The notes under the pieces: model-generated
Database searches by the model: none
Told to the model about the DNA's origin: nothing
The model's input: the letters and a program-made list of their open reading frames with translations, nothing else
In this document: piece after piece, positions 7,767 through 30,574 of the stretch
How the letters are laid out: every line of letters starts with the position of its first letter
Position numbering within the stretch: the first letter of the stretch is position 1
Position numbers and translations under genes: made by a program
From: Candidatus Jordarchaeales archaeon
GTDB taxonomy: Archaea; Asgardarchaeota; Jordiarchaeia; Jordiarchaeales; Freyrarchaeaceae
Direction of reading: 5' to 3'
Assembly: GCA_038858525.1 (NCBI GenBank)
Contig: JAWCFL010000001.1
Location: forward strand, 169,172-201,171
DNA length: 32,000 nucleotides

Positions 7767-8828
7767 ATGACGGTGATTTATGTGCCCAAGATCATTCCGC
7801 CGGAGGGTTTGAAAAGAAAGGTTATCGTTAAGAGTGAAGAGGAAACCAGTGAGGAGTACGGTAAACGTCCTAGCGAGAGGAGTGTGGAGGAGCTTTTAGA
7901 GGGGTGCTTCGTGAACATAGATAAGCCGGCAGGCCCGACCAGCCACGAAGTTTCTTCCTGGGTAAGGAGAATTTTGGGTTGCTCAAAAACTGGACATGCA
8001 GGGACACTAGAACCCCTTCAGACTTTGAAGGGGTGGTGAAATCCTAAGGTTACTGGGGTCTTGCCGGTTGCGGTAGGGTCTGCTACAAAGGTTATACAGG
8101 CCCTTCACCTTATAGGGAAAGAATACGTTTGCGTTATGAGGCTCCACGAGGATGTTGAGGGCGAAAGGATCAAGAAGATCTGTAAGGAGTTTACTGGGCC
8201 AATCTATCAGAGGCCGCCGATACGTTCCTCGGTGAAGCGAAGGCTTAGAGTAAGACGGATATATTACCTCGACGTGCTTGAGGTGGAAGGAAGAAATGTC
8301 CTGCTGAGAATAGGATGCGAGTCTGGGACGTACATAAGGAAGCTTTGCCACGACATAGGGGAGGCGTTAGGGTGCGGCGCTCACATGCGCGAGCTTAGAA
8401 GAACTCGAAGTGGACCTTTTACCGAGAGAAACATGGTAACGCTACACGACTTAAAGGACGCCTATGTTTTTTGGAAGGAGGAGGGTGATGAAGCTCCCAT
8501 CAGAAAAGTGTTATTACCAGTAGAGGAGGGAGTGCAGCACTTGCCCAAGTTTTTCGTGAGGGACTCAGCTGTTGACGCCATATGTCATGGAGCGGACTTA
8601 GCTGTTCCCGGCGTAGTCAAGCTTGAAGATGGAGTGGAGAAGGGTGATGTGGTCGCGATCTTGACTCTTAAGGGTGAACTAGTCGCTCTGGGCGTTGCCC
8701 TGATGACCGTAGAGGAAGTTGTAAGAGAAAAGCGGGGAATAGCGGTTAAAACGACAAGAGTAATAATGAGCAAAGGAACTTACCCAAAACTCTGGAAAAG
8801 CAAGAAGAATAGCGGTTCAATCACGTAG
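7767..8828 (+). CDS. cbf5: H/ACA pseudouridine synthase Cbf5, two exons (7767-8010, 8041-8828), 343 aa spliced
   Basis: [12 protein letters not shown] and GHAGTL upstream; [20 protein letters not shown] and the PUA domain downstream. Both ORF-track pieces share a frame and are separated by a 30-nt hairpin insertion containing TGA. Removing it gives GHAGTLDPKVTG. Confidence 0.96.
8011..8040 (+). other. 30-nt BHB intron in cbf5 mRNA
   Basis: Exon helix GGGA/UCCU; central helix CACU/GGUG; bulges AG|A and AA|A; intron stem ACCCCUUCA/UGAAGGGGU with loop GACUU. It splits the catalytic Asp codon (G|AT). Confidence 0.95.
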
Positions 8829-8900: not shown

Positions 8901-9206
8901 TTGAAGTACCCTAAAGTTAGGCGAACTTATTGTCCACGATGTAAAACACACACAGAACACTCAGTTAGCGTCTATAAGAAAGGTAAGGATAGGGCACTGG
9001 CCGCAGGAGCTAGGCGCTATGCAAGGAAGAAGAGGGGTTATGGAAGCCAGCCTAAGCTCTTCTATGTCTTATAGAAGAGGGGTAAGCCCGTTCAGAGGGA
9101 GTTCGCGAAGACCACTAAGAAGGTTAGCTTTAAGCTTAAATGCAAGGAGTGCGGTCATACGCTCCACACTAAAGGTATCCGCCTCAAAAAGGCTGAAGCA
9201 ATTTAA
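8901..9206 (+). CDS. rpl44e: 50S ribosomal protein L44e (eL42), two exons (8901-9055, 9086-9206), 91 aa spliced; absent from the ORF track
   Basis: Hand translation from TTG 8901: [20 protein letters not shown]...GYGSQPK[insertion with TAG][24 protein letters not shown]...AI*. Canonical position before S27e and aIF2alpha. Confidence 0.95.
9056..9085 (+). other. 30-nt BHB-type intron in rpl44e mRNA
   Basis: Central helix GCCU/GGGU (two G-U pairs); bulges AA|G and AA|G; stem CUCUUCUAU/AUAGAAGAG with loop GUCUU; outer exon helix imperfect. Contains an in-frame TAG. Excision gives CCT AAG CCC GTT (PKPV). Confidence 0.88.
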
Positions 9207-13827: not shown

Positions 13828-13864
13828 ACATTTATTTTTGATGCTTATAGTGGAGGGGACCTAT

Positions 13865-14005: not shown

Positions 14006-14253
14006 GTTTTTCCGGATAGCGTTACGACGTCCCCTACAATCTTCATACTTGCAAGTATATCATCCAGCGTCGACAGTAAAGTGCTGATCTTGCCGTTGTA
14101 CTCGAGAAGCATGATTAACCTATTTTCGTCTGATTTCATTTCAAACTTCATGTTTTTAGGCAGAGGCGTGTTATCGGGCGACAACGCTCTCAATGTTATG
14201 GCGGCCTCGGAGGGGGAGGAAAATTCCACTTCAATAATTATTTTAGCCATCAT
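14002..14253 (-). CDS. pcc1: KEOPS subunit Pcc1
   Basis: ALSPDN and LLSTLDDIL pattern, 83 aa; downstream of S15-DHH as in the conserved archaeal cluster. Confidence 0.82.
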   Translation of the reverse strand: MMAKIIIEVEFSSPSEAAITLRALSPDNTPLPKNMKFEMKSDENRLIMLLEYNGKISTLLSTLDDILASMKIVGDVVTLSGKT

Positions 14254-14271
14254 TCGCCCACTTCTCCATCA

Positions 14272-15699: not shown

Positions 15700-16154
15700 T
15701 GCCTTACGAGTAAAGCTACCTTTTCGGGGTCATACTTCCAGTCTGGCGGCAGAACATGGCATTTCTTATAGTACTTCACCAACCTATGAATTTTTGACTC
15801 TGTGAGCTGGAGTCCTCTTCTCGAGTGAAGGTCTTTCCTGTGCTCTTCGAGATGTCTCCTGATTCTTAAAGCTCGCCGAATTAAGTTTGTGAGGTCCTCC
15901 GGGAGGGGGGACGTTAATCCATGCTCTTTCATGATCTGCGTAATCTTTTTACCCACTATTGGCTTAACAAGCGGGACGCCATGTTGGTCTCTTAGTATTA
16001 TTCCGATCATTGATGGAGGGTAGCCGCTCCTAGCTAGCTCAACCACTTTATCGACTACCCATTCTGGGGTTTTGTCGAACCATTCTGGCGGTTTCTTTAC
16101 CGGAGGACGCTTAGATGAAGATTTCCTCTTTTTCCTCGCGTGCATTCTCGCCAT
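15696..16154 (-). CDS. rps15: 30S ribosomal protein S15 (uS15/S13e)
   Basis: [34 protein letters not shown] and [11 protein letters not shown] motifs. Confidence 0.97.
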
Positions 16155-16207
16155 AATAGAACCCTTCTCTCAGGATAATGCTAGGGGGCTGATAAGAAAC
16201 TTGATGT

Positions 16208-16816
16208 TTAAATAATTTTCGAGGATGTTAGCCATTCAGCAAGCTTCCTGAGGGCTCTCGCCCTATGTGACAGCTTATTCTTTTCCCTAACGTCGAGCTC
16301 GGCAAAGCTCCTTCCATCACCCTCCTCAGGTATAAATATAGGGTCGAAACCAAATCCACGTTCTCCCTTGACGGCGTGAGATATGAAGCCTGAAGCCTGA
16401 CCTTTAAACACCAGCATCTCCTTGCCATCTGTGAACGCCACAACCGAAACAAAAACAGCTCTCCTGTTATCGACGCCATCCATAAGTTTTAGCACGCCTT
16501 CATTGCCTATTTTGCTGAAGACATAGGAGGAATAAGGTCCTGGGAACCCGTTGAGCGCCTCTATGAAGAGGCCGGCGTCCTCAACGAAAAAAGGGCATCT
16601 TGGATTCGCCTCCCGCATCAGCCAAGCCAGACTAATCCTAGCGATCTCTTCCAAGCTTTCCGACTGGACCTCGAGGCGCTTCACGTCCCACTGTTCAACA
16701 TTTAACCCGTACTCTGAAAAAACGATCTCAGCTTCTTGAAGCTTGTGCCTGTTACTTGTGGCGAAGAGGACATGTTTCACCTTTCCCAGTAGCGCCCCCT
16801 CCTTTCGATCTCCCAC
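16208..16816 (-). CDS. rdgB: XTP/dITP diphosphatase (RdgB/HAM1)
   Basis: FATSNRHK, VEDAGL, GFPGPYS, GFGFDPIF and SHRARAL motifs. Confidence 0.95.
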   Translation of the reverse strand: MGDRKEGALLGKVKHVLFATSNRHKLQEAEIVFSEYGLNVEQWDVKRLEVQSESLEEIARISLAWLMREANPRCPFFVEDAGLFIEALNGFPGPYSSYVFSKIGNEGVLKLMDGVDNRRAVFVSVVAFTDGKEMLVFKGQASGFISHAVKGERGFGFDPIFIPEEGDGRSFAELDVREKNKLSHRARALRKLAEWLTSSKII

Positions 16817-17403
16817 ATTTTATCTATAACTTCATTTGCCCCCTCAAAGGCGTCCCTATAACCTTGAAGAACAGCGTTGAATCCTTCTTCGAAAACGTCG
16901 TAATGACTGCTTTCCATTGCCCGCTTCATCAAGTGCAGGTCAACTCCCAAGTCCTCAACGTTCCTCGAAAAGTCTCCAAGCCCAAAATCGATGAAAAAAA
17001 TCTTCCCGTTACTAACAATCATGTTTGAAGTTGTCAGGTCTCCGTGTACTATGCCCTCCCTGTGAAGCCGCCCTATTAATTCGCCCACCTCACGCAACAA
17101 CCTGACAAGTTCTTCGCGCGGCAAACCTCCTTCCTTTATGAGGTCACTTAAAGTTCTTCCATCAATGTAATCCATAATTATAGAGGCGGATTCTAAGTCG
17201 ACGAGGTAAACTGTGGGCGCCGGGACGCCGGCTCTCTTTGCGCTATGAAGCAAGCGCGCCTCACGAATAACTCTCTGTCTTCTTAAGCTGTCATCCAGTT
17301 CCTTGATCCTGTAAAGCTTAGGCTTACGCTCCTTAACGACAACTCTTCGCCCAAAAACATGGCTAAGGAGAAGATGAGCTTCAGCCCCCTTCTTGATCAT
17401 CAC
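16777..17403 (-). CDS. bud32: KEOPS kinase/ATPase Bud32
   Basis: GAEA, VVVKER, HGDLTTSN and IDFGL motifs. Confidence 0.95.
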   Translation of the reverse strand: MMIKKGAEAHLLLSHVFGRRVVVKERKPKLYRIKELDDSLRRQRVIREARLLHSAKRAGVPAPTVYLVDLESASIIMDYIDGRTLSDLIKEGGLPREELVRLLREVGELIGRLHREGIVHGDLTTSNMIVSNGKIFFIDFGLGDFSRNVEDLGVDLHLMKRAMESSHYDVFEEGFNAVLQGYRDAFEGANEVIDKMWEIERRGRYWER

Positions 17404-17409
17404 CGTATC

Positions 17410-18440: not shown

Positions 18441-18459
18441 AAGTCTCAGTGTAGCGCCA

Positions 18460-18660
18460 TCAGCCGCCTTCATCCTCCTTATCCTCATCCTCTCTTTTCT
18501 TTTCCTTAGCTTCCCTAACATACTCCGTGTATCCACACTTGCCGCAGGTGTAACGGCGCCAGTGCTCCGCCATGAAGACGCCTGGCCCACACCTGGGACA
18601 GAACTTTTTGGCGCGAACCAGTTGGCCATTGACGATCTTGTAGTATTTGCCAACGCTCAC
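18460..18660 (-). CDS. rps27ae: 30S ribosomal protein S27ae (eS31), no ubiquitin fusion
   Basis: [15 protein letters not shown] and [12 protein letters not shown] motifs. Confidence 0.96.
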
Positions 18661-18682
18661 TTAACATCCCTCCCTTTCGCTC

Positions 18683-18985
18683 TTAAGCTGCACCTTTACT
18701 TTCATCGCCGAGATTACGATTAATGAGGTAATCTGGCTCTATTTGGAGGGCAACATCCTTAGAGCTGTAAACTCGAGCCACCCCCTTAGACTGGCCCACA
18801 CCGTACTCGGTCTCTATTTTTCTTATGAACACTTGGTCTAGGGAGACATTGAGGAGGGCGGCGAGCTTGCGCCTGACTTCCACTCTGTTCGGCGTGCCCT
18901 CGCCTTCATGCTCAACCACGAACTCTACTTCTTCCCTGTTAAAGAAAGGGTTTTTACTTCGAGAAACAAGTTTCACTTCCATCAC
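18683..18985 (-). CDS. rps24e: 30S ribosomal protein S24e
   Basis: NPFFNREEV, GTPNR, IETEYG and GVARVY motifs. Confidence 0.95.
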   Translation of the reverse strand: MMEVKLVSRSKNPFFNREEVEFVVEHEGEGTPNRVEVRRKLAALLNVSLDQVFIRKIETEYGVGQSKGVARVYSSKDVALQIEPDYLINRNLGDESKGAA

Positions 18986-19514
18986 GTGAAGCCTCCCGCA
19001 TTTCTTTAATAATGCTCATAACGCGTTTTTTCGCATCCTCATCAGCCTCTAGAACTACTAATCCTTGACCAGGCTGACCATAAATTATTATCGTTTCCTC
19101 TGGGGCGAGTAGCGCGGCAGGTATTGTAAGCAGGTCTTCTTCTCCATCAACCTCCACGCACACTCTGCCAGCCCTCGAGTATGCATCCTCGAAAACTCTC
19201 CACGCCTCCTTTTTTATCGTCCCTGGAGGGTTTCTCAGATTAAGCTTCTCCCACCCATCCAAATTTAATTTAAGCCCGATGGTCCTAAGCGTTTTCCCAT
19301 CAACCACAATAATATCCGGCTCGACGCCCACCTCAAGAAGCGTCTTCGCCACCACGTCGCCGACCGCGACCACCCTCACGCTTCCCCCCCTCTCCTCGAG
19401 CATGCGCTTAACCCTCAAGCTGCTTTCAGGGTGCCGCCCCTCGACCAGCACACCAAAAGGCGCCTTAAGCCGTTCCCGTAACTTCAAAGGCAACTCTAAG
19501 TCGTAGTCCAGCAA
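18954..19514 (-). CDS. DUF359 GTP-dependent dephospho-CoA kinase
   Basis: VGDVV, VVDGKTLR, NPPGTI, VDGEEDLL and IYGQPGQG motifs; conserved spt4-DUF359-S24e order. Confidence 0.92.
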   Translation of the reverse strand: MLDYDLELPLKLRERLKAPFGVLVEGRHPESSLRVKRMLEERGGSVRVVAVGDVVAKTLLEVGVEPDIIVVDGKTLRTIGLKLNLDGWEKLNLRNPPGTIKKEAWRVFEDAYSRAGRVCVEVDGEEDLLTIPAALLAPEETIIIYGQPGQGLVVLEADEDAKKRVMSIIKEMREASRDGSETCFSK

Positions 19515-19520
19515 CCAGCG

Positions 19521-19706
19521 TCACCTAACTTTCAACGCGTACCTACCCTTCTTCTTGATGTTCAGCTTCTTAGCTATCTGTGACCCTTCAGGGTCAAAAA
19601 CGACTAGTAGTCCCCCATAATCATCAGATAGGGAGGACGTTTTGCACTCAGGGCACATCTGGTCTCTAACTAGAAGTTTACAGGTACGGCAGGCCCGCTC
19701 CCTCAA
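19521..19706 (-). CDS. spt4: Transcription elongation factor Spt4 (RpoE'')
   Basis: ACRTC, CPEC, DPEGSQIA and GRYALKVR motifs. Confidence 0.95.
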   Translation of the reverse strand: MRERACRTCKLLVRDQMCPECKTSSLSDDYGGLLVVFDPEGSQIAKKLNIKKKGRYALKVR

Positions 19707-20287
19707 GTTCCCTTAACCTCCTCATCACTTCTCTTTCCACCACTTTTTTCAGCTTCCTCTTTTATCCACTCTAGCTTTCCCAAGAATGGTTGACGCATAG
19801 TTAACCCTATCCGTCCCCCTCTAGCCCCCCCGGTCATAGAGACAGAGACAACTCTCGCCCTCACAACATCGTTCTGCATTAGGCGCTTCCCTGTCTCCTT
19901 CCCCGTCAATATCCCAGCTTTGCCGTCGTAATCGATGAAGTCATCCATGAGCTGAGAAATGTGGATGAGCCCCTCAATAGGCCCGAGACGCACGAAGACG
20001 CCGAAGTCAACGATCGCCGTCACAACACCCTCAACAACCTCGTTCTGCTCAGGCTTAAAGGTGAGAACATGGAAGGTCGCCTCATGGAATGCTCCTCCAT
20101 CACCCGGAATAAGCCTCCCGACACCAACATCCTCCACGCCGACAACGCAAAGCACAATCCCCAGCTCAGGATCCATAACTTTCTCATACTCCTGCCTAAG
20201 CATTTCGAGAGCAACCTTCTCGACAGGCTCCCCAAACCTGTCAGGAGGAATCCTGAGCACATCCTTAAGTGTGACAAGTTTATACAC
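19703..20287 (-). CDS. rpoE1: RNA polymerase subunit E' (Rpo7)
   Basis: LRIPPDRFG, GDGGAFH, FGVFVRLGPIEGLIHISQLMDD and IGLTMRQPFLGK motifs. Confidence 0.96.
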   Translation of the reverse strand: MYKLVTLKDVLRIPPDRFGEPVEKVALEMLRQEYEKVMDPELGIVLCVVGVEDVGVGRLIPGDGGAFHEATFHVLTFKPEQNEVVEGVVTAIVDFGVFVRLGPIEGLIHISQLMDDFIDYDGKAGILTGKETGKRLMQNDVVRARVVSVSMTGGARGGRIGLTMRQPFLGKLEWIKEEAEKSGGKRSDEEVKGT

Positions 20288-20387
20288 GCAACGACACCTC
20301 CAAGGAAACCAGCAGACTCAACAAGCGCAGCACCAAACCAAAACGCAAGAAAACACTTGGTCAGCCTCACGACTAACATTCATCACC

Positions 20388-20801
20388 TTATAAAATTTCC
20401 CCATCAAGAAACAAACGTCTTCCCTGCCTTAGAAAGACCACAGGCACACCAACCCGCCTGAGACGCCTACGAAGCTTGGCGTCATTAGTCGCCACAACAC
20501 AACCCTCCCTCTTAGCATAATCGAAGACCGCGTCATCTACGCCCCCACCCTCCACCCCCGATGGGCAAACCCTAAACCCTCTTACCTCAACGAGAGACAA
20601 GGCAGCCCTTGCCAGTTTCCCTCTCCTCCCACCCTTCTCAGCCAGCTTCATCAACTCATCAATAACCCGATCCAAAACAATAACCTCATAGCGCCCACCA
20701 ATAACCCGACCAAGCTCTGAGAAGACATCCCATCCCAACAGAAACGGAGCAATCAAAAAGTTACTGTCAACTAAAACCCTAACATATGATCCCCCACCCA
20801 A
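20388..20801 (-). CDS. PIN-domain ribonuclease (Fcf1/Utp24-like)
   Basis: VLVDSNFL, VIDEL, VDD and VATND.KLRRRL motifs; conserved position after aIF2gamma. Confidence 0.9.
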   Translation of the reverse strand: MGGGSYVRVLVDSNFLIAPFLLGWDVFSELGRVIGGRYEVIVLDRVIDELMKLAEKGGRRGKLARAALSLVEVRGFRVCPSGVEGGGVDDAVFDYAKREGCVVATNDAKLRRRLRRVGVPVVFLRQGRRLFLDGEIL

Positions 20802-22093
20802 TAAGCCTCCACCTTCCCGAAACCATCCTGCTCACAGCCACCCTCTGACCATCCTCAGCACACACAGGACGCCGCAGCGCCACTTCAACCTCCCCACTCC
20901 TAATCGACGATACAACGCCCACTGTCACCGCCGACCCAACATTCAGCATTAAAGCCTCATTAACACGCACATTCTCCACCCTGGAAAGCTCCTCGCTTCC
21001 CACAACCCTATCCATCAGGTGAAGCTCAATACACAAATCCTCACGCACGGGAGGAAGGGTCCCGGGAGAACCTACAACGTTCCCAATCAAACCATCAGCC
21101 TTCGTCAAAGAGGGGTCCAGCCGCGTACCAACACCAATCAACCCACCTGGCAAAGCTTCCTCAAGCCACACGTCACCAGCATGCAAACTTACAACGTCAG
21201 CATAAATAGGCTCAAACTTACCTTTAACAGCAACTCCCGGACGAATTTCAACCTCATCCCCAACCCTAACTCTACCTTGAATAATGGTTCCACCAATAAC
21301 GCCCCCAACAAGATCCTCAGGCCTAGTTCCCGGCTTATTCACATCAAATGACCTCGCCACATACATCCTCAAAGGCTTACCCGGGTCTCTAACCGGATTA
21401 GGAATATGCTCTTCCATGAACTGCAACAAAGCATCCAAATTAACACCAAAAACAGCCGAAACAGGAACAATAGGAGCATCCTCAGCAAAACTACCACCAA
21501 TAAACCTCTTAATCTGTCTAAAGTTTTCTAATGCCTTCTCCCTAGAAACAAGCTCAACCTTATTCTGAACAATAACAACATTCCTCACACCAATAATCTC
21601 CAAAGCCGCAAAGTGCTCTCTAGTCTGCGGCTGAGGGCAAAACTCATTAGCAGCAACAACAAAAACACAACCATCCATCAAAGACGCACCACTAATCATG
21701 GTCGCCATTAACCGCTCATGACCAGGACTATCCACAAAGCTGACCTTCCTCACAAACTCAGCTTCACTCCCACACTTAGGGCACTTCCACCCCCCAGCCA
21801 TAGCCAAAGTAAAGTAGCAGTCAGGAGGCGGGCAAGATGGACACTTCAAAATAATAGCATCAGCATAACCCAACTTAATCGTAATACCACGACGCTTCTC
21901 CTCACTATGACGATCAGTCCACACACCAGCCAAAGCCTGCACAAGCGTGGTTCTTGGCCCGCGAGAGAGACACTCCCAACGGATTGCCATGATCCACGTC
22001 TCTAGCACCAGCTGATCAACAGCTGGCGAGTCCAGCTGTTCCCACAGAAACTAAAGCCTGCGTACTCATGGCCTTCTTATAAGCTTCGTCCAA
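20779..22093 (-). CDS. eif2g: Translation initiation factor aIF-2 gamma, three exons (22093-22030, 21999-21984, 21952-20779), 417 aa spliced
   Basis: TDRHSEEKRRGITIKLGY, FVDSPGHE, CPQPQTREH and NKVE motifs. The P-loop missing from the ORF track is rebuilt as GTAGHVDHGKTTLVQAL after removing two insertions. TTG 22093 follows an SD GGGGG. Confidence 0.95.
21953..21983 (-). other. 31-nt BHB intron 2 of aIF2gamma mRNA
   Basis: Central helix UGGC/GCCA; bulges AA|U and AG|A; stem CCGU-U-GGGAG/CUCUC-GCGG with loop UGUCU; outer helix CGUGG/CCACG. It splits the P-loop Lys codon (AA|A). Confidence 0.92.
22000..22029 (-). other. 30-nt BHB-type intron 1 of aIF2gamma mRNA
   Basis: Central helix CUGG/CUAG; bulges AC|U and AG|A; stem CGCCAGCUG/CAGCUGGUG with loop UUGAU; in-frame TGA; outer exon helix weak. 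It splits the His codon (C|AC) of GHVDHGK. Confidence 0.9.
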
Positions 22094-22136
22094 ACAAGAA
22101 CCCCCAAGAGCTTTTAGGAAAGTCTTCACGAAAGCG

Positions 22137-22152
22137 TTATTTAAAAGTTTCC
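22137..22152 (-). promoter_or_regulatory. Probable BRE-TATA promoter of the aIF2gamma operon
   Basis: The minus strand reads GGAAAC-TTTTAAATAA about 44 nt upstream of the TTG start. Confidence 0.6.
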
Positions 22153-22500
22153 AGCGAAAGGATGAGGAAGGGTAGATGGTGGCGATACGAACAGTCAGAG
22201 CGGCGGGTGTTTGTTTATGTGTTTTGGCGGAGGCGGGATGTCGGGGGTTCTAAAAAATATGTCTATTTGTGTGATGAGAAACTTGGGGATGAGGAGCTTG
22301 CTGATTAGGGGTTTCGTTACCGGGAGGAGAGAGTTATTGTGATGAGCTAGGTCTTTACGACGGGGCCACCCAGCGTTTACCCGTAAACCTTCTGGGAGCT
22401 GGGAAGCTTGGTTGGAGCTTCTCAGTTTGCGTTCCGCTTCTTGGATGCAAGGGAGCGTCGATGAATGTGGTGTTAATTCTATAAGCTTGCCCCCCCTCTT

Positions 22501-22762
22501 ATGAGAGTTTACGTGTTAATTAACGTTGAGCTGGTGGAGAATCGATGAGGGGGGGCTGTGAGTTAGGAGCCTGAGATGAAAGAGATTGGCGGGGAGCCAG
22601 GTTTCAGAGGTAGGCACATCTCGAGTACGGAAAGGTGGAAAACAAAGCCTGGCGAAATGGTTGATGGCCCATAAAGACGAGGTGAGATTCAAGGGGCTGC
22701 CTGGAGCTGTGAGGAGCAAGGTGAAAAACACGGCAAAATTTGACCGACAAGCTCACGCATAA
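22501..22762 (+). pseudogene. Possible decayed small-gene remnant (Lrp/AsnC-like fragments)
   Basis: MRVYVLINVELVENR* followed by a fragment containing LPGAVRSKV loosely resembles Lrp/AsnC ligand-binding domains. There is no intact ORF. Confidence 0.25.
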
Positions 22763-23219
22763 GTAACTCATAAATGCCATAGCCCAACTTATTATTACTC
22801 AACAAGAAAAATAAGCTGACGCTTAAGACAAACAACAGCTCACACACCAAAACTAGCCAGGCTTCAATCAATAACAATAATACGCCAAACCCAGCCAGTA
22901 ACAAGAGAGCTACCATCCATCACGCAACAAAACCACAAGGATGCCCACACCAGGACCAGTAAGCCTATACACCAAAACAATCCACGAACCCACACAACCA
23001 GAAAACTAACCAAAACCACACAAAAATACCGAAAATACCGAAAAAAGCTCCAAACACCACCACCCACCCATAAACAACCTGACCATCTAATAATAATTAC
23101 TCAACCACAACACCGAAAAACACAAAAACAAAAAACGACAAGTTCACAGAAGAGTCGAAAAAAATAAAAAACCAGACAAGTAGACAATCCTAGTAAACAT
23201 CTAATAGGAGGGTTTTAAG

Positions 23220-24521
23220 TTGAGCGAAAAGAAGCCACACCTAAATATTGTAGTTATTGGGCATGTTGACCATGGGAAGTCGACTATGATGGGGCATTTG
23301 TTGTATTTGACTAAGGCGATTGATGAACGTACGATTAAGCAGTATGAGGAAGAGGCGGAGAAAATTGGTAAGGGTAGTTTTAAGTTTGCGTGGGTTATGG
23401 ATAAGTTGAAGGAGGAGAGGGAGCGTGGTTTAACTATTGATCTTTCGTTTTGGAAGTTTGAGACGGAGAAGTATTACTTTACAATTATTGATGCTCCGGG
23501 GCATAAAGACTTTATTAAGAACATGATTACGGGTACTAGTCAGGCGGATGCGGCGGTGCTGGTGGTTTCTGCTAGGAAGGGGGAGTTTGAGGCAGGTATT
23601 GGTCCGGGTGGTCAGACGAGGGAGCATGCATACTTGGCGTTTACGTTGGGTGTTAATCAGTTGGTTGTCGCTATTAATAAGATGGATGATGCTAGTGTTG
23701 GCTGGAGTAAGAATAGGTATGATGAGGTGAGGAAGGAAGTCGAGGGGTTGTTGAGGCAGGTTGGTTATAAAGTTGAGGAGATTCCGTTTGTTCCTGTATC
23801 TGCTTGGTTTGGTGATAATCTTATTGAGCGGAGCGGAAAGATGCCGTGGTATAGTGGGCCGACGCTTGTTGAAGCGTTGAATAGTTTGAAGGTGCCACCT
23901 AAGCCTGTGGATAAGCCGTTAAGGATTCCGGTGCAGGATGTTTACAGTATTACTGGTGTTGGGACAGTGCCGGTTGGCAGGGTTGAGACTGGGGTGTTAA
24001 AGGTTGGGGATACTGTGGTTTTCCAGCCTGCTAACGTGAAGGGTGAGGTGAAGTCGATCGAGATGCATCATGAGCCGCTTAGCGAGGCGGTTCCAGGGGA
24101 TAATATCGGGTTTAACGTGCGTGGGATTTCGAAGAAGGATATTAAGCGTGGGGATGTTGCTGGTCATCCAGATAAGCCGCCTACTGTGGCTGAGCGGTTT
24201 GTGGGACAGATAATCGTTATTCAGCATCCTACGGCGATTGCTGCGGGTTACACGCCAGTGATTCATGCTCACACGGCTCAGGTGGCGTGTAGGTTTGCTA
24301 GGCTTGTTGCTAAGCTGGATAGGCGGACTGGTCAGGTGGTGGAGGAGAACCCGAGCTACATTAAGCGTGGTGACGTTGCGCTGGTGGAGTTTGAGCCTGT
24401 GAGGCCTATGGTGGTGGAGCCCTTCAAGGAGATTCCGCAGTTAGGGCGTTTTGCTGTGCGTGACAGTGATTACACTGTTGCGGTTGGTGTTGTTAGGGAG
24501 GTTAAGCCGCGCGCCGGCTAA
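23220..24521 (+). CDS. tuf: Translation elongation factor EF-1 alpha
   Basis: [47 protein letters not shown] and LGRFAVRD motifs. Confidence 0.98.
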
Positions 24522-24584
24522 ACCTTCTTTGCTTTTTCTTTTTTGGTTGTGGTGTTTATCGTTGTGCGGGGTGTGTTCTGTTTT

Positions 24585-24758
24585 ATGAAGTCGGTGTCTT
24601 TTAGGGTTCCTGAGGAGTATTTGAAGGGGCTTGGTGTTCTTGTTGAGCTTGGGGTCTTTAGGAGTCGGAGTGAGGCTGTTCGTGCTGCTGTGAGGGAGTT
24701 GCTACGGAGGGAGGGTGTTTTCGAGGATGAGGTGGCGGTGGTTGTTGATGTTGATTGA
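24585..24758 (+). CDS. Ribbon-helix-helix (CopG/CdrS-like) protein
   Basis: MKSVSFRVP...LVELGVFRSRSEAVRAAVRELL is a typical RHH pattern. ATG at 24585. Confidence 0.85.
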   Translation: MKSVSFRVPEEYLKGLGVLVELGVFRSRSEAVRAAVRELLRREGVFEDEVAVVVDVD

Positions 24759-24803
24759 TGAAGGTGTGGTTTTCTCTTGGGTGGGGTTTAGGGAGGGGTT
24801 GGC

Positions 24804-25505
24804 TTGGGTAGGATTTGTGTTTCGTTGATGGCTGATACTGTGGAAGGACTGATGGGCAAGGTTGAGAGGGCGTGTGAGGCGGGGGCGGACTTAGTTGAGT
24901 TGCGGTTGGATTACTTAAGGGAGAGGGATGTGGATGTTGCGGGGCTGGTTTCTGGTTTGGGTGTGCCTGTGATTTTGACTGTGAGGCGTAGGGAGGAGGG
25001 AGGGGTTTTCCCGCTGGGGGAAGAGGAGAGGGTGGGGCTGATTGAGAGGTGCATTGAGGCTGAGCCGGACATGGTGGACCTTGAGTTGTCGATGGGGGTT
25101 AGTGTTCTTCAGAAACTCATCTCCCTTTGTAGGGAGAGAGGGGTTTCGGTTATTCTTTCATATCACGACTTTAGTGGGACGCCTTCCTGGCAGGATCTTA
25201 GGGGGAGGGTGGCGGCCATGTTTAGGTTGGGTTGTAGTGTGGCTAAAGTTGTGACTGCGGCAGGGGCTATCAGTGATAATCTGCAACTTTTGGGGCTGGC
25301 GTCCCTGTACCCTCAGCGCGTGGTAGCTTTCTGTATGGGTAAGATAGGGGTTCTGTCTAGGGTTCTGTGCACGTTTTTTGGGTCGCCGTTCACGTATGCC
25401 TCGTTGGATGCGCCGCTTGCCCCGGGGCAAATAGACATTGCAACTATGAGGAAGGTGCATGAAAGCTTGGCTCGCATACTCGATGCGGTGGGGAACCATG
25501 TTTGA
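24804..25505 (+). CDS. aroD: Type I 3-dehydroquinate dehydratase
   Basis: DLVELRLDYL, ILTVRRREEGG, VDLEL, ILSYHDF, AKVV and APGQI motifs. Confidence 0.93.
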   Translation: MGRICVSLMADTVEGLMGKVERACEAGADLVELRLDYLRERDVDVAGLVSGLGVPVILTVRRREEGGVFPLGEEERVGLIERCIEAEPDMVDLELSMGVSVLQKLISLCRERGVSVILSYHDFSGTPSWQDLRGRVAAMFRLGCSVAKVVTAAGAISDNLQLLGLASLYPQRVVAFCMGKIGVLSRVLCTFFGSPFTYASLDAPLAPGQIDIATMRKVHESLARILDAVGNHV

Positions 25506-25736
25506 GGCGGGCTTCGCCGGCGGCTTCTGGCGTTCAGCGTTTATCCGGATCAGTTTGAGGTTGGGTGTTTTTGAGGCGTGATAGTGGGGGGGGAAGCGGG
25601 GGTCCACGGGCTTCGTGATTGTGGTTGGAGCTTGGTCTTCTTTTCGTGTTTTTGTGTTTGATGGGTTGCTCAGCTGTGGAGCGATAAAAATATAAATTAT
25701 TGTGGTTTGGGTTGTTGTGAATTGGGGGTTTGTGGC

Positions 25737-26264
25737 TTGCCGAGGCGACCATCTAGGTGCTATACGAGGATTGATGGGCCACCTTATACGCGGGTTGAGT
25801 ATATTCATGGGAGCCCGCCTTCCAAGATTAGGATTTACGAAATGGGAAATGCTAGTCGCAACTATACTTTGAGGGCTGACTTGGTTATCGATGAGGCTTG
25901 TCAAGTCACGGACGGCGCTCTCGAGGCTTTGAGGGTTGCGGCTAGCAGGCATCTCACGAATAGCTTTGGGCGTGACGGATTCTACCTCAAGATTAGGCCT
26001 AAGCCCTTCCACATTATTCGTGAGAGGAGGATGTTGGCGTTCGCCGGGGCAGACCGTTTACAGGACGGCATGAGGAAGGCTTTCGGCAAGCCTTCAGCGA
26101 GGGCGGCGCGCGTTAAGGAAGGAGAAGTTATTTGCAGCGTTTGGGTCGACGATTCGCCAAAGGCTGTTGAAGCTGTTAAGAAGGCGCTTTACGTTGGGGC
26201 TAGGAAGCTTCCCCGTCCATCCCACATAGAGTTTACTAGAGGGGAGAGCCTAACCTTAAAGTGA
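25737..26264 (+). CDS. rpl10e: 50S ribosomal protein L10e (uL16)
   Basis: RPSRCY, PPYTRVEYIHGSP, ALEALRV, PFHIIRE and AGADRLQDGMRKAFGKP motifs. TTG start at 25737. Confidence 0.96.
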   Translation: MPRRPSRCYTRIDGPPYTRVEYIHGSPPSKIRIYEMGNASRNYTLRADLVIDEACQVTDGALEALRVAASRHLTNSFGRDGFYLKIRPKPFHIIRERRMLAFAGADRLQDGMRKAFGKPSARAARVKEGEVICSVWVDDSPKAVEAVKKALYVGARKLPRPSHIEFTRGESLTLK

Positions 26265-26876
26265 TTGCGGATCTCCGGATAGGATCCGCCATTCCTCGTC
26301 TTTGTGAAGCTTGCTGAACTCTGGACCAGTGGCGCCCGCATACTTTGGTAGTGGCTTTTTAAGGTAGCTGCTTTCCCCTCCAGTTACCCTGTGAAGGACT
26401 AGCTGTGCTATTCTGGCGGCGGGGTAAAGGGCTATGTCTGCCTCTCCTAGGTTCACGAGTTCAAGTGTTAAAACGCCGGCGTAGCCCGGGCTGACAAGTG
26501 TTGCTGTGGCGATGATTAGGCCTAGGCGACCCCACGAGGAGCGCCCTATCACGTACCCCATGAGGTCTTCGGGGAGCTTTATGTACTCTAGAGTGCTTCC
26601 AAGTATGAGCTGGTTTGGGCGCAGTATGAGCTTCTCGCGGAAGGGGACATGGATCTTTTCTTGGTACTGCGCTATTTCTGCTTCTATGTTTTGCTGCGCG
26701 GGGTCTAGAAGGGAATACTTTGTACGCTTCGTTATGATGAACTCTGTTCCAAGCCTAAGGTCGACTGACCCTGCGGAAACCTGGCTCTTCGAGATTAGAG
26801 GTGTTATTACTAGTTTCTCTTGAGTGTTGGACGTGAATAGTCTTCGCAGGATCTCCTCTTTTGAAAGGACGGTCAT
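26256..26876 (-). CDS. dcd: dCTP deaminase-family (trimeric dUTPase fold) protein
   Basis: SVDLRLG, LGSTLEYIKLP, GRSSWGRLGL, PGYAGVLTLELVN and IAQL motifs. Confidence 0.85.
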   Translation of the reverse strand: MTVLSKEEILRRLFTSNTQEKLVITPLISKSQVSAGSVDLRLGTEFIITKRTKYSLLDPAQQNIEAEIAQYQEKIHVPFREKLILRPNQLILGSTLEYIKLPEDLMGYVIGRSSWGRLGLIIATATLVSPGYAGVLTLELVNLGEADIALYPAARIAQLVLHRVTGGESSYLKKPLPKYAGATGPEFSKLHKDEEWRILSGDPQSL

Positions 26877-28018
26877 ATTTCCGCCTCTAGCAAGCTTTTG
26901 TGTATTATGCTCAGTTCTATTGCTTTTTCTATTAGGGCGGCAAGCTTTTTCTTTGCTTGGTATTTCCCTTCAGGATCCTGAACTTTCAGGATGTTGCAGA
27001 AGGTAGGCATATAGCGCTGCTTAACTATCCAGCCGGCGTTTATTATTGAGGGTATCTCGGCGGGGCGCGTAGCCTTGTCTGGTAAAGTGACCTCGTTTGG
27101 GGGAAGTAGCTCTAGAAGTCTTGAGACAAGCTGAGGAACCTCGCACTCAAAAACTTCGGGAGGGTAGTAGGCGGCTGTTTTCCTAAAGGATTCTTCTATC
27201 TCGTGGAGGCGCTCTATGCCGGTAGATGAGCGCAGCTCTTCTAGAGGAGGCAAAGAGCCGCTCAGGAGCTCCTCTTCATAGTAACCTTCATCTGCGAGCA
27301 GGGCGGCTATGTTTCGTATGCGCTCTTTTACATCGGAAGCAAGTGACGCATCGAAATTTGTGAGTGTGAAGAGGTAGGCTGGGCCGACCATTAAAGAAGC
27401 TAAACGGTCTGCGGCGATTATTAGAAGCTTGTTCGAGGATCCCTCCCCGGTAAGGGTTTCTTCGAGAAGACGTTTTGATTCTATCATGTGGAGAGCTAAC
27501 TCACGCGCTACGAGGCAGTGTGAAAGAGGGTCGTTCCTCAGGAAGTAAGGAAGGGTGAAGAAGAGAACTTCTTCTTTAAGCTCTCGGCTTTCCGGGGGGA
27601 GAAGGGGGGCGGCGAGTTTGAGGATGTCTGAGAGGCGAGAGTGAGAGGACGTGTAAGATTGAAAGCAGATGATGGGGACCGCTTCTTCACCTGCTTTCCC
27701 GGTTAGGTATTCTGCCAGGTACACTGCTCCTAAAGAGGTGTAATGAACGTTCGAACGCTCTATTTTTTCGATGAGGCCACAAATCGCTTGTAAAAGTTCA
27801 TATCCCTTCTCGACTAAAGCTTTCGTGGAGGAAGAGGGCGGAAGAGATTCTAGAGAAGAGCGCAGGTTCCAGACAAGTGAGAAGAGAGATTTAACAGCTC
27901 TCCTTTGAGTTGGCCTAGGAAAGACTCCCAGCTCGATCCGCCTCAAAAGTTCTTCCAAGTCGAGGAATTTCTCTACGAGAATCTCCGAGCTTTTTGTCTC
28001 CAACAAGGAACACCTCAC
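26873..28018 (-). CDS. Uncharacterised 381-aa helical protein, translationally coupled to the dcd-like gene
   Basis: Long ORF with SD GGTGAGGTG and a 4-nt overlap with dcd; no family recognised with confidence. Confidence 0.75.
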   Translation of the reverse strand: MRCSLLETKSSEILVEKFLDLEELLRRIELGVFPRPTQRRAVKSLFSLVWNLRSSLESLPPSSSTKALVEKGYELLQAICGLIEKIERSNVHYTSLGAVYLAEYLTGKAGEEAVPIICFQSYTSSHSRLSDILKLAAPLLPPESRELKEEVLFFTLPYFLRNDPLSHCLVARELALHMIESKRLLEETLTGEGSSNKLLIIAADRLASLMVGPAYLFTLTNFDASLASDVKERIRNIAALLADEGYYEEELLSGSLPPLEELRSSTGIERLHEIEESFRKTAAYYPPEVFECEVPQLVSRLLELLPPNEVTLPDKATRPAEIPSIINAGWIVKQRYMPTFCNILKVQDPEGKYQAKKKLAALIEKAIELSIIHKSLLEAEI

Positions 28019-28454
28019 CAGTCATTTTGGTTGATCAGCCAAGTTCTAAAGGATTTCTCCCCTATAAACGGCAAATAAGGTGGGAGAGCGACAAACTACT
28101 CATAGATAGGTCATCACTCATAAGGAGAAACAAGTGAACCTGTGTCAGAGTTACTTTTAATGCTGCCATAGCCGGGGTTAAGTGTTAAAGACGTGGCTGA
28201 GGTTGGCCTTTAAGTTGAGTTTTTGATGTTGCTCTTGATGAGGCCTGCTCCCTTAAAGTTCAAGAGGGAGCGTGACAAATTTGATGAGGTGTAAATGTCG
28301 TTTTCTATACTTAGGAAAAATAGACAAAGTTTAAATAGGAATGTGTTAGAATAGGGAAGATAAAGACTTAAATAAGTCTTGGTGAAAATACCCTGTTTGA
28401 AAAATGCGAGCTTTCTTTTTTTTAAAAAGAAAGGATGGGGAGAAATGGATAACG

Positions 28455-30536
28455 ATGAGTGGTGATTCCGAAGATAATAATGAGAAACATAAAAAGCGCC
28501 ATGTCAACGGTTCTAGAGGGAAAAAAAGTAACGGCGCGGGCGGTAATCACAGTAATGGCAGCAATCACAGGCAAAGCGTAAAAGTCCTTGGTCCCGTAAG
28601 CAACTTAGAGGAGTACGTTCCACACGACTGGTGGAGTCGAATCTTCAACTCGCTTTACCTAAAGACTGACGGGGACGTTGTAGACGACCAAGAGATTACG
28701 CGTTACGAAGTGGACTTGTTCTCCTCGATCCTAAAGCTTAAGCCTGAAGACAGGATCCTCGATTTGTGCTGCGGTCAGGGACGCCACTCCTTGGAGCTAG
28801 CGAGGAGAGGATATAAGTTCGTTGAGGGACTTGATAAGTCGCATTACCTGATACATAAAGCTAAGGAAAGAGCGAAAAAAGAAGGGTTAAATGTCAGGTT
28901 CAGGGTTGGCGATGCGAGAAAGTTACCCTACCCACCGGACACTTTTGACGTCGTGATGATCTTGGGGAACAGCTTCGGCTACTTTGAAACGGTATACGAC
29001 GACCTTAGAGTGCTAAAGGAGGTTTTCAGGGTTCTGAAGCCGTGGGGCCGGGTTCTAATAGATGTAGCTGACGGAGAATACCTCAAGGAGCACTTCCAGC
29101 CTCGCTCGTGGGAATGGGTGGACAAGAAGCACTTCGTTGTCCGAGAGCGCTCATTATCAGCTGACCGGCAACGCCTCATATCCCGAGAGATAATCACGCA
29201 TGTTGAGAAGGGAGTTATTGCAGACCACTTCTATGCGGAAAGGCTCTACACGAAAGAAGGACTCAGAGACCTCTTGCAGCAAGCCGGCTTAAGCGACGTC
29301 ACTATTCACGGGGACTTAACGACGTTTTCTAAGCGCAACCAAGATTTAGGAATGATGGAGAAACGCATAGTAATCACCGCCATAGCCAAGAAAGAGTGGA
29401 CGCCGATAAAGAGAAGAGAAAAAGAGTCACTCTTAACGGTCGCAGTAATCCTAGGCGACCCAACTAAACGCGACCCACTAAAACCCGGCGGGGTATTCGA
29501 CGAAGACGACATTTACACGATCGACGCGCTCAAGGACGCGTTAAGACAACTTAATGGCTACAACTTCATATACCTAAACAACCACGATAACTTACTCCAA
29601 GACTTGATTAAACTCAAGCCGAAAATAGATTACGTCTTCAACTTGTGTGATGAAGGATTTAACAACGATCCAAGAAAAGAGTTACACGTCCCAGCGATAC
29701 TTGAAATGCTCAATATACCTTATACCGGCTCAGGGCCACAACCTCTAGCCCACTGCTATGATAAATCCCTGATAAGGGGATTGGCGAGAGAAATGGGGAT
29801 TCCTGTTCCCAAGGCAGTCCTGATTAAGCCAGAAGACGAATCCGTCGAGATACCCTTCGGCTTTCCGGCCATAGTAAAGCCAAACTTCGGCGACTCAAGC
29901 TTTGGAATCACATGTAGGTCAGTGGTTAACAACTCCGAGGAGCTCCTAAACGCCATAGCCGAAATACGCGAAAGGTTTGGCTACAACAGACCAATACTTA
30001 TCGAGGAGTTCTTGACCGGAAAGGATCTAACAGTAGGAATAATAGGAAACGTACCTGATTCCTACATGGTTCTACCCATAACGGAAGAAGACTACTCGAG
30101 TCTACCAGAAGGAATGCCTCCGATTTGTGGCTACGAAGCAAAATGGCTTCCCGACTCGCCATACTGGAATATTAAAACGAAGCCAGCGGAGCTACCGCCT
30201 GAAACAGAAACGATCATTGTAAAGTCGTGCATCAGCCTCTTTGAACGACTCGAAATCAGAGACTACTGCAGGTTCGACTGGAGGCTTGACGCAAACGGAA
30301 GGCCAAAGCTTCTCGAGGTCAACCCCAACCCCGGATTGGGTGCACCTAACGGTGCGCCGCACGGAAGGTGTTGGGACGGGCACCTCGCAAAGATGGCGAA
30401 GTTCGCAGGGATGTCTTACGCTGAGATGCTAGGAGCCATCCTAAGGGCGGCAGAGCAGAGACTGGGCATCCGACCGAAATACGAGAAATATGAGAAGGTA
30501 GGGGAGGAAGCCCGGGTAGAGGCGAGGGCAACATAA
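28455..30536 (+). CDS. Class I SAM methyltransferase fused to a D-Ala-D-Ala-ligase-like ATP-grasp domain
   Basis: N-terminal ILDLCCGQGRH, GDARKLPY and GNSFGYF; C-terminal VFNLCDEG, PYTGS, IVKPNFGDSS, LIEEFL, RFDWR and EVNPNPG. ATG at 28455; the ORF track opens at 28404. Confidence 0.9.
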   Translation: MSGDSEDNNEKHKKRHVNGSRGKKSNGAGGNHSNGSNHRQSVKVLGPVSNLEEYVPHDWWSRIFNSLYLKTDGDVVDDQEITRYEVDLFSSILKLKPEDRILDLCCGQGRHSLELARRGYKFVEGLDKSHYLIHKAKERAKKEGLNVRFRVGDARKLPYPPDTFDVVMILGNSFGYFETVYDDLRVLKEVFRVLKPWGRVLIDVADGEYLKEHFQPRSWEWVDKKHFVVRERSLSADRQRLISREIITHVEKGVIADHFYAERLYTKEGLRDLLQQAGLSDVTIHGDLTTFSKRNQDLGMMEKRIVITAIAKKEWTPIKRREKESLLTVAVILGDPTKRDPLKPGGVFDEDDIYTIDALKDALRQLNGYNFIYLNNHDNLLQDLIKLKPKIDYVFNLCDEGFNNDPRKELHVPAILEMLNIPYTGSGPQPLAHCYDKSLIRGLAREMGIPVPKAVLIKPEDESVEIPFGFPAIVKPNFGDSSFGITCRSVVNNSEELLNAIAEIRERFGYNRPILIEEFLTGKDLTVGIIGNVPDSYMVLPITEEDYSSLPEGMPPICGYEAKWLPDSPYWNIKTKPAELPPETETIIVKSCISLFERLEIRDYCRFDWRLDANGRPKLLEVNPNPGLGAPNGAPHGRCWDGHLAKMAKFAGMSYAEMLGAILRAAEQRLGIRPKYEKYEKVGEEARVEARAT
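30337..30366 (+). other. Candidate 30-nt degenerate BHB intron, in frame and stop-free
   Basis: Stem GGUGCACC/GGUGCGCC with loop UAAC; central helix CCGG/ACGG (one G.A mismatch); bulges AU|U and AA|G; outer helix CCCAAC/GUUGGG. Excision gives NPNPG-W-CWDGH. Confidence 0.68.
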
Positions 30537-30574
30537 AAGGCGCCGCATTCACCCATTAATTTTTCTATTTTTTG

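What the first reader, a model, noticed from the sequence alone, without database searches (positions are those of the whole stretch)
30321..30380. In-frame, stop-free degenerate intron in an accessory gene: optional splicing or exonisation
Seen: a 30-nt insertion converts predicted NPNPG-W-CWDGH to NPNPG-LGAPNGAPHGR-CWDGH. It has an 8-bp hairpin, a 6-bp outer helix and correctly spaced bulges, but a G.A mismatch in the central helix. It is the same length as three clear introns here, yet invisible to ORF callers. Inference: it is either spliced weakly, giving two isoforms at the ATP-grasp active-site loop, or it is a decaying intron now translated. It also implies the introns are not confined to translation genes. 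The uninterrupted motif GWCWDGH is my recollection of this family and needs an alignment.
Basis: partly seen in the sequence, partly recalled or inferred. Interest (0 to 1): 0.75.

Follow-up and report, generated by a model that had tools for sequence, protein, structure and literature searches.

The report
Young hidden tRNA-type intron, cut in RNA
A 30-base insert found only in this Asgard archaeon splits an invariant tryptophan codon of an enzyme gene and is shaped like the tRNA-type introns common in this genome; one RNA-library contig ends exactly at its predicted cut site, joined head-to-tail to the start codon, so the message seems to be cut there and its first exon closed into a ring.

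Summary
Bases 30337-30366 are a clean 30-nt insertion. It turns the motif NPNPG-W-CWDGH, which has a single W in all 120 homologues retrieved, into NPNPG-LGAPNGAPHGR-CWDGH by splitting TGG as T|GG. Three genomes of the same genus lack it, while DNA contigs from two other studies carry it, so it is a real and recent gain rather than an artefact or a fossil.

It has the same 1+23+4+2 layout as the conserved 30-nt introns of cbf5, rpl44e and aIF2-gamma in this window. Its bulge-helix-bulge (BHB) motif is only a relaxed one: the central helix has 3 pairs plus G.A, and each flanking helix starts with one pair followed by a 1-nt bulge. The genome encodes a two-paralogue EndA and RtcB.

New here: one metatranscriptome contig is a closed 1,882-nt cycle running from ATG 28455 to 30336, the predicted 5' splice site. 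No contig shows the spliced or the unspliced junction, so exon joining and "two isoforms" remain open.

Best reading (0.62): a young tRNA-type intron cut by EndA. How the 5' end of the ring forms is unexplained. This scan has already reported many other mRNA introns in this genome; what is new is that this one is in-frame, species-specific and shows an exon ring.

The parts
28455..30336 (+). Exon 1 of the SAM-methyltransferase / Ddl-like ATP-grasp fusion gene, from the true start codon ATG 28455 to the T of the split TGG codon. It is also the exact span of the circular RNA-library contig.
   Evidence: Pfam PF13649 and PF07478. The start is set by the homologue P0003 and by a 1-nt indel at 28415 in DNA run X10. 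Joint 30336->28455 in the X14 contig.
30337..30366 (+). 30-nt insert, the candidate BHB intron. It is in-frame and stop-free and encodes (L)GAPNGAPHG(R) if translated.
   Evidence: Absent from 120 homologues and from genomes G001-G003. Unique in the genome. Present in DNA contigs of runs X10 and X12.
30367..30536 (+). Exon 2: GG of the Trp codon, then CWDGHLAKMAK... and the stop codon at 30534-30536.
   Evidence: Alignment A1; ORF list.
30324..30330 (+). 5' strand of the outer (exon-exon) helix. CCCAAC pairs with GUUGGG, and C30330 pairs with G30368 across a bulged U30369.
   Evidence: Folds. Both strands are fixed by the conserved codons NPN and CW.
30331..30334 (+). Exon tetramer CCGG, the 5' strand of the 4-bp central helix.
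   Evidence: Pairs with 30361-30364, giving 3 pairs plus G.A. Pair probability is 0.17-0.24 at 37 C and 0.4-0.5 at 60-75 C.
30335..30337 (+). Bulge 1 (A U | U). The predicted 5' cut lies after 30336.
   Evidence: The cut position follows from homology. The RNA contig joint is at 30336.
30338..30360 (+). Inner hairpin: closing pair G30338-C30360, bulged G30359, 8-bp stem 30339-46/30351-58, loop UAAC. The two arms are also a 12-nt direct repeat (9 of 12) because GGTGCACC is a palindrome.
30361..30364 (+). Intron tetramer ACGG, the 3' strand of the central helix.
30365..30367 (+). Bulge 2 (A A | G). The predicted 3' cut lies after 30366.
   Evidence: Inferred from homology and the BHB geometry. 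No RNA evidence.
30368..30375 (+). 3' strand of the outer helix (G, bulged U, GUUGGG).
28420..28427 (+). TTTTAAAA, a possible TATA box 28-35 nt before ATG 28455. This would fit a leaderless or nearly leaderless mRNA. It is conserved in G003.
   Evidence: Sequence and alignment of upstream regions. Inference only.
8011..8040 (+). cbf5 intron, a canonical hBHBh' motif, used as the internal reference.
   Evidence: Conserved in G001-G003.
9056..9085 (+). rpl44e (eL42) intron, used as a reference.
   Evidence: Conserved with compensatory stem changes.
22000..22029 (-). First aIF2-gamma intron, used as a reference.

Best explanation
Bases 30337-30366 are a recently gained tRNA-type (bulge-helix-bulge) intron inside the Trp codon of the invariant NPNPG-W-CWDGH motif of a methyltransferase/ATP-grasp fusion gene.

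In the pre-mRNA:
- The exon tetramer CCGG pairs with the intron tetramer ACGG.
- A 3-nt bulge lies on each side (AU|U and AA|G).
- An 8-9-bp hairpin closes the intron.
- The exon codons for NPN and CW pair with each other.

The heterotetramer-type splicing endonuclease, which is known to accept relaxed motifs, cuts after 30336 and probably after 30366. RtcB should then join the exons and restore UGG.

Shown: the insert, its uniqueness, its layout, the presence of the enzymes, and an RNA-library contig with a joint exactly at the 5' cut site.

Inferred: that EndA is the nuclease, that the 3' site is cut, and that the exons are joined.

The contig shows a side product or alternative fate. Exon 1 (28455-30336) is joined head to tail, that is, circular. 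How its 5' end at the start codon becomes ligatable is not explained.
For: - The insert is absent from 120 of 120 homologues and from three congeneric genomes, and it splits an otherwise invariant codon. Removing it restores the codon exactly.
- It has the same length and the same 1+23+4+2 layout as the cbf5, rpl44e and aIF2-gamma introns.
- The BHB-like fold lies 0.4-1.1 kcal/mol from the minimum-energy fold. Its central helix is 40-50% populated at 60-75 C.
- The chance of such a structure at a fixed site is about 2e-4, or about 2e-6 with the outer helix.
- There are two EndA paralogues. One has the Tyr/His/Lys pattern and one lacks the His. RtcB is present.
- The RNA-library contig of run X14 (1,912 letters, a k-1 overlap of 30, 99% like the window) has the joint 30336->28455 with no shared or extra letters. 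The two DNA runs show no such joint and read straight through the insert.
- 9 of the 11 listed differences between the X14 strain and the window in exon 1 are synonymous, so the gene is under purifying selection in the lineage that shows the cut.
- Literature: cbf5 introns often have relaxed motifs that are cut by heterotetrameric EndA (PMC2738675). tRNA introns are gained often and recently in Jordiarchaeia, only about 55% of gains sit at canonical BHB boundaries, and the (alpha-beta)2 architecture is common there (bioRxiv 10.64898/2026.10.13.758758).
Against: - Strict hBHBh' is not met. There is a G.A in the central helix next to the 5' bulge, and only one pair sits before a 1-nt bulge in both flanking helices.
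- A simple score finds equally good BHB-like pairings nearby that make no biological sense, so structure alone proves little.
- The RNA evidence is one assembled contig from one run of a 99%-identical strain. Contigs cannot show the end chemistry.
- RtcB needs a 5'-OH. No BHB or other cut signal was found at 28455, and no Rnl3-type ligase was found (the genome is 92.7% complete).
- The hairpin arms are also a tandem 12-nt repeat coding GAPN/GAPH, which is what a slippage-born, translated loop could look like.
Confidence: 0.62

Rival explanations
1. Cleavage without productive splicing. The imperfect motif is cut at the 5' site, but the exons are rarely or never joined. The insert then acts as an RNA-level break, or a regulatory switch, that yields a truncated and circularised exon-1 RNA. 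The ATP-grasp domain is lost, or the gene is on its way to being lost.
For: The only RNA form recovered is the exon-1 cycle. Across the joint the frame reads ...NPNPG-YEW-stop, so the ring has a closed ORF lacking the last 56 residues. The 5' bulge is the one next to the G.A mismatch, yet that site is the one seen cut.
Against: The 3' bulge has the better helix context (three Watson-Crick pairs beside it), so if the 5' site is cut the 3' site should be cut too. The 7-pair exon-exon helix would hold the exons together for RtcB. Exon 2 is intact and identical to the family consensus. Exon 1 is under purifying selection, including its ATP-grasp part. Contig assembly drops minor branches, so a spliced form could be present but unseen.
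Confidence: 0.17
2. An ordinary translated in-frame insertion. A slippage-born tandem repeat, GAPN-GAPH, forms a surface loop of the protein. The hairpin is a by-product of duplicating the palindrome GGTGCACC, and the RNA joint is an assembly or library chimera.
For: The insert is in-frame, stop-free and Gly/Pro/Ala-rich, with a 12-nt direct repeat matching at 9 of 12. Strict BHB rules are not met.
Against: It replaces a Trp that is invariant in 120 homologues from bacteria and archaea, one residue after the catalytic E-x-N-x-x-G block. Its length and layout coincide with those of the genome's true introns. The RNA joint falls on the one base predicted from homology, out of about 1,900 in the contig. 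The insert shows no significant similarity to its flanks that would indicate local duplication.
Confidence: 0.13
3. The cut at 30336 is made by another RNase that recognises the base of the hairpin, for example an RNase P-like or HEPN/toxin-type nuclease. The resemblance to a BHB motif is then coincidental.
For: The cut lies 1-2 nt 5' of a stable hairpin. The second end of the ring (28455) has no BHB motif either, so a non-EndA nuclease may be acting on this RNA anyway.
Against: The genome is rich in BHB introns with the same layout. The cut is at the position a BHB predicts, after the second bulge base. No other RNA family matched the window.
Confidence: 0.08

Closest known systems
cbf5 pre-mRNA BHB intron of Crenarchaeota (Watanabe 2002; Yokobori 2009, PMC2738675), and the cbf5 intron of this window (8011-8040)
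   Same: A short intron of about 30 nt inside a codon of a conserved motif of a protein gene. It has a BHB-type structure, often relaxed, in an organism with a two-subunit EndA, and is presumably processed by EndA plus RtcB.
   Different: The cbf5 intron is old and conserved, breaks the frame (in-frame TGA) and here forms a perfect hBHBh' motif. The candidate is species-specific, in-frame and stop-free, imperfect, and sits in an uncharacterised, widely exchanged enzyme gene.
Recently gained tRNA introns of Jordiarchaeia/Atabeyarchaeia (bioRxiv 10.64898/2026.10.13.758758)
   Same: The same class of organisms. Gains are frequent on terminal branches, many gains do not sit at canonical BHB boundaries, no donor sequence can be found, and EndA is of the (alpha-beta)2 type.
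   Different: Those introns are in tRNA genes. The paper does not mention mRNA (0 occurrences of the word).
BHB intron in the 5' UTR of Haloferax volcanii HVO_1309, and circular pre-rRNAs (PMC7714728)
   Same: EndA acts on an mRNA, and the products are found as circular RNAs.
   Different: There the ring is the excised segment, flanked by a BHB motif on both sides. Here the ring is the 5' exon, with a BHB site at one end only.
Ire1/RtcB unconventional splicing of HAC1/XBP1 mRNA (own knowledge)
   Same: Protein-only, tRNA-ligase-dependent removal of a short intron from a translatable mRNA, so that spliced and unspliced forms encode different proteins.
   Different: A different nuclease and different stem-loop signals. 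It is regulated by stress and is eukaryotic.

Membership tests
Archaeal bulge-helix-bulge (tRNA-type) intron | Two 3-nt bulges on opposite strands, each 3' of a 4-bp central helix | tested here: inconclusive
   The spacing is exact for cuts after 30336 and 30366. The central helix has 3 Watson-Crick pairs plus G30334.A30361.
Archaeal bulge-helix-bulge (tRNA-type) intron | At least 2 contiguous pairs in both flanking helices (strict hBHBh') | tested here: not met
   The inner and the outer helix each start with 1 pair and then a 1-nt bulge, followed by 8 and 6 pairs. This fits only the relaxed class.
Archaeal bulge-helix-bulge (tRNA-type) intron | Removal restores the conserved gene product | tested here: met
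   Removal gives GGA TGG TGT, that is G-W-C, as in 120 of 120 homologues.
Archaeal bulge-helix-bulge (tRNA-type) intron | RNA is cut at the bulges in vivo | tested here: inconclusive
   5' site: one RNA-library contig has a joint exactly after 30336. 3' site: no evidence. The identity of the nuclease cannot be tested here.
Archaeal bulge-helix-bulge (tRNA-type) intron | Exons are ligated (the spliced RNA exists) | tested here: inconclusive
   No contig in the four runs laid carries the 30336^30367 joint. Contigs drop minor forms, and raw reads were not available.
Archaeal bulge-helix-bulge (tRNA-type) intron | Splicing endonuclease and RtcB ligase are encoded | tested here: met
   PF01974 matches twice (191 aa with Y/H/K; 198 aa without the His) and PF01139 once.
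30-nt mRNA introns of this genome (layout 1 + 23-nt hairpin + 4 + 2) | Same length and same register of hairpin, tetramer and bulges | tested here: met
   U + 23 nt (30338-30360) + ACGG + AA. The loop has 4 nt rather than 5, and there is one extra bulged G.
30-nt mRNA introns of this genome (layout 1 + 23-nt hairpin + 4 + 2) | Conserved at the same site in related genomes, with compensatory stem changes | tested here: not met
   The cbf5 and rpl44e introns are conserved. The candidate is absent from G001, G002, G003 and beyond.
Host gene: SAM-methyltransferase / Ddl-like ATP-grasp fusion family | PF13649-type methyltransferase domain followed by a PF07478 ATP-grasp domain with EVNPNPGWCWDGH | tested here: met
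   Pfam. Identity to homologues from archaea and bacteria is 65-88%. The motif is interrupted only by the insert.

The most novel reading that the evidence does not exclude
A newly born, imperfect BHB site makes an archaeal exonic circular RNA. EndA cuts the mRNA at 30336 and the whole 5' exon, from the start codon on, is closed into a stable 1,882-nt ring. Its reading frame is completed by a stop codon created three codons past the joint (...NPNPG-YEW-stop). This would be a previously undescribed fate of an archaeal mRNA, either a by-product of young introns or a way to make or regulate a truncated, methyltransferase-only enzyme form. It would also imply a route that gives a ligatable 5' end at the first base of a leaderless message.
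Probability: 0.25. Interest if true: 0.88.

Novelty: new variant of a known kind. Interest (0 to 1): 0.72.

Why it matters
- It would be a dated example of intron birth in a protein-coding gene of an Asgard archaeon. The intron is present in one species, absent in its congeners, and still imperfect.
- In-frame, stop-free introns are invisible to gene callers and to frame-based intron screens. Counts of archaeal mRNA introns may therefore be too low, and some annotated 'loop insertions' may not exist in the protein.
- The head-to-tail exon-1 RNA, if confirmed, is a kind of archaeal circular RNA not covered by the known classes (excised introns, pre-rRNAs, C/D box RNAs). It also gives a direct handle on how sloppy early splice sites behave. 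That bears on how intron-rich genes could arise in the lineage closest to eukaryotes.

Tried and rejected
- **RNA cover:** in run X14 nothing lay on 30337-30560 or on 27903-28454. In run X16 only pieces inside exon 1 were found. The control intron at 22000-22029 had no RNA cover. By the tool's own rules these gaps prove nothing, and contig depth (63.7) cannot rank genes.
- **Long-range BHB:** a BHB between the leader (up to 28454) and the region after 30336 would explain the ring as an excised segment. The central tetramers AUAA and CCGG do not pair, so this was rejected.
- **5'-UTR intron ending at 28454:** no acceptable motif was found for any length from 12 to 440 nt. The local fold is no better than shuffles.
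- **13-bp complementarity 28109-28121 / 28455-28467:** it is not conserved in G003, which has the same start region. I treat it as chance.
- **Origin of the insert:** there is no other copy in the genome and no significant similarity to its flanks.
- **Metagenome scan with the 24-mer before the insert:** it found only three distant homologues, all without the insert.
- **Genome-wide BHB scans:** strict and relaxed scans were too noisy to give an intron census or to find other hidden in-frame introns.
- **Covariance model of the 30-nt introns:** MAFFT could not align the unrelated intron sequences in register, so no model was built.
- **Other searches:** Rfam and tRNA scans of the window found nothing. 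No Rnl3-type RNA ligase (TIGR01209) was found in the 92.7%-complete genome.
Full report
**What is there**

The window belongs to an Asgard archaeon. The nearest homologues are named Jordarchaeales or Freyarchaeota, and the window is G000:C1:169172-201171.

The ORF 28404..30536 (+) encodes a class I SAM-methyltransferase domain followed by a D-Ala-D-Ala-ligase-type ATP-grasp domain (Pfam). The real start is most likely ATG 28455, for three reasons:
- A close homologue starts at the equivalent Met.
- A DNA strain carries a 1-nt insertion at 28415, which a coding region would not tolerate.
- The upstream DNA is conserved as promoter-like A/T blocks rather than as codons.

**The insertion**

An alignment of 13 family members shows an invariant NPNPG, a nearly invariant W, and an invariant CWDGH. 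The window alone has ten extra residues. A regular-expression check of all 121 proteins held gave 120 with a single W and one, the window, with LGAPNGAPHGR.

At the DNA level, relatives read GGN TGG TGY TGG GAC. The only way to derive the window's sequence is a 30-nt insertion between T30336 and G30367, which splits TGG as T|GG.

Three genomes of the same genus (85-90% protein identity) have a match 30 nt shorter and no insert. The insert has no second copy in the genome and no significant similarity to its flanks.

It is not an assembly error. Contigs of two DNA runs from other studies (X10: 28311-30446; X12: 28433-30375) run through it without a gap.

Alignment to DdlA (8evv) places the insert one residue after the E-V-N-x-x-P-G block. 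In Ddl enzymes this block carries the Mg-binding Glu and Asn (own knowledge of DdlB).

**Structure**

The 80 nt around the insert fold better than shuffles (z = -2.3), with a GC-rich 8-bp hairpin and a 6-bp exon-exon helix.

The window holds three clear 30-nt introns:
- cbf5, 8011-8040
- rpl44e, 9056-9085
- aIF2-gamma, 22000-22029 on the minus strand

Removing each restores a conserved protein, and for the first two the BHB motif is the minimum-energy fold. All three have the layout 1 nt + 23-nt hairpin + 4 nt complementary to the exon tetramer + 2 nt.

The candidate has the same layout: U, then 30338-30360, then ACGG, then AA. It has three defects:
- G30334.A30361 in the central helix.
- A bulged G30359 after the first inner pair.
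- A bulged U30369 after the first outer pair.

Strict hBHBh' is therefore not met. A naive score also finds other BHB-like pairings nearby that would delete conserved residues. Structure alone is thus weak evidence.

Three results do support the structure:
- The BHB-like conformer lies only 0.4-1.1 kcal/mol above the minimum.
- Its central pairs are 40-50% populated at 60-75 C.
- In shuffled genomes a structure of this grade occurs at about 2.3e-4 of positions (central helix plus hairpin), or about 2.4e-6 with the outer helix. That is meaningful here because homology, not folding, fixed the site.

The outer helix is made of the conserved NPN and CW codons and already exists in relatives that use TGT for Cys.

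**Machinery**

The genome has two EndA-family genes. One (191 aa) has the Tyr, His and Lys pattern. The other (198 aa) lacks the His, as expected for a catalytic plus a structural subunit. This heterotetramer type is the one known to cut relaxed motifs and mRNA (PMC2738675, PMC5829648).

RtcB is present. An Rnl3-type ligase was not found (the genome is 92.7% complete).

**RNA**

Of 22 public runs that share words with the stretch, two are metatranscriptomes. I laid two RNA and two DNA runs on 10561-30560.

The RNA run X14 holds a 1,912-letter contig that is 99% like the window. Its first 53 letters lie on 30284-30336 and its remaining letters on 28455-30313. Its ends overlap by 30 letters (k-1), so it is a closed cycle of 1,882 nt whose joint links 30336 directly to 28455, with no shared or extra letters.

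One end is the exact base predicted as the 5' splice site. The other is the A of the start codon. Neither DNA run has this joint.

This is the first RNA-level support for a cut at the predicted site. The coincidence is hard to get by chance, since it is one position in about 1,900.

Caveats:
- It is a single assembled contig from a sister strain.
- Contigs show neither end chemistry nor minor forms.
- The tool warns that RNA libraries can hold DNA.

No contig carried the spliced or the unspliced junction in RNA.

Of the 11 listed differences between that strain and the window in exon 1, nine are synonymous and two conservative. The gene therefore stays under purifying selection in the lineage that shows the cut. 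Read across the joint, the frame ends as ...NPNPG-YEW-stop.

**Age**

The cbf5 and rpl44e introns are present at the same sites in the three congeners. For rpl44e this extends to another family of the order, with compensatory stem changes. The candidate is absent from all of them.

It is therefore a recent, terminal-branch gain, not a fossil. This matches what a recent preprint reports for tRNA introns of this class: many gains on terminal branches, only about 55% at canonical BHB boundaries, and no identifiable donor.

**Reading**

The most likely reading is a young tRNA-type intron that the broad-specificity endonuclease cuts, with RtcB expected to rejoin the exons. Because the insert is in-frame and stop-free, unspliced messages would still give a full-length protein with a disturbed active-site loop. 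That may be why such an imperfect intron is tolerated.

The ring of exon 1 is unexpected and only half explained. The 3' end fits an EndA cut. The 5' end at 28455 has no BHB motif, and RtcB needs a 5'-OH, which a primary transcript does not have.

The rival readings are cleavage without joining, a plain translated insertion, and another nuclease.

**Context within this scan**

Earlier notes report many BHB introns in protein genes of this same genome (queE, gatE, ppsA, leuD, EndoQ and others, some with spliced RNA contigs). So 'introns are not confined to translation genes' had already been seen. The host gene family has also been described as widespread and uncharacterised.

What is new here:
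- The intron is species-specific.
- It is hidden by being in-frame.
- There is a circular exon-1 contig.

Published work that I could find describes BHB processing of mRNA only for cbf5 and for one haloarchaeal 5' UTR (PMC2738675, PMC7714728).

Noticed in passing
window 28455 and 30336: The circular RNA contig's frame, read across the joint, gives G-Y-E-W-stop, so the ring carries a complete ORF of about 630 codons. The ring length is 3n+1 (1,882 nt).
   Followed up: partly
window 28109-28121 vs 28455-28467: There is a 13-bp complementarity (3 G.U pairs) between an upstream intergenic segment and the first 13 nt of the coding region, ending exactly at the ring's joint base. It is not conserved in G003, so it is probably chance.
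   Followed up: yes
window 17053-17378 (minus-strand Bud32-like kinase gene 16777..17403): One RNA contig of X14 skips 324 nt in frame, which would remove 108 residues of the kinase N-lobe. Support is only 24 letters on one side, and I saw no BHB motif at the ends. It is likely a foreign or chimeric contig.
   Followed up: partly
window 28404-28454: The ORF callers' N-terminal extension (MRAFFFLKRKDGEKWIT) is probably not coding: DNA run X10 has a 1-nt insertion at 28415. The stretch holds a 10-bp A/U hairpin (28411-28434) that overlaps a TATA-like TTTTAAAA and is conserved in G003.
   Followed up: partly
window 28404-30536 (host gene family): The methyltransferase / Ddl-like fusion is 65-74% identical between Asgard archaea and bacteria such as Thermotoga, Synergistetes and Phycisphaerales. 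That is unusually high conservation and points to lateral exchange. Its function is unknown.
   Followed up: no
window 8011-8040 and 9056-9085; L021-L023, L026: The cbf5 and rpl44e introns are kept at the same sites in three congeners (rpl44e also in another family of the order). The stems show compensatory changes and the loops vary in length from 29 to 35 nt.
   Followed up: yes
L016 1474..2049 (-) and L017 1189..1785 (+): There are two EndA paralogues. The 198-aa one has an acidic N-terminal tail and lacks the catalytic His, so it is probably the structural subunit.
   Followed up: partly
window 28226-28300: The divergent intergenic region holds three TGATG(A/T) motifs and a CTGA, reminiscent of C/D-box or k-turn elements. 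Rfam gave no match.
   Followed up: no
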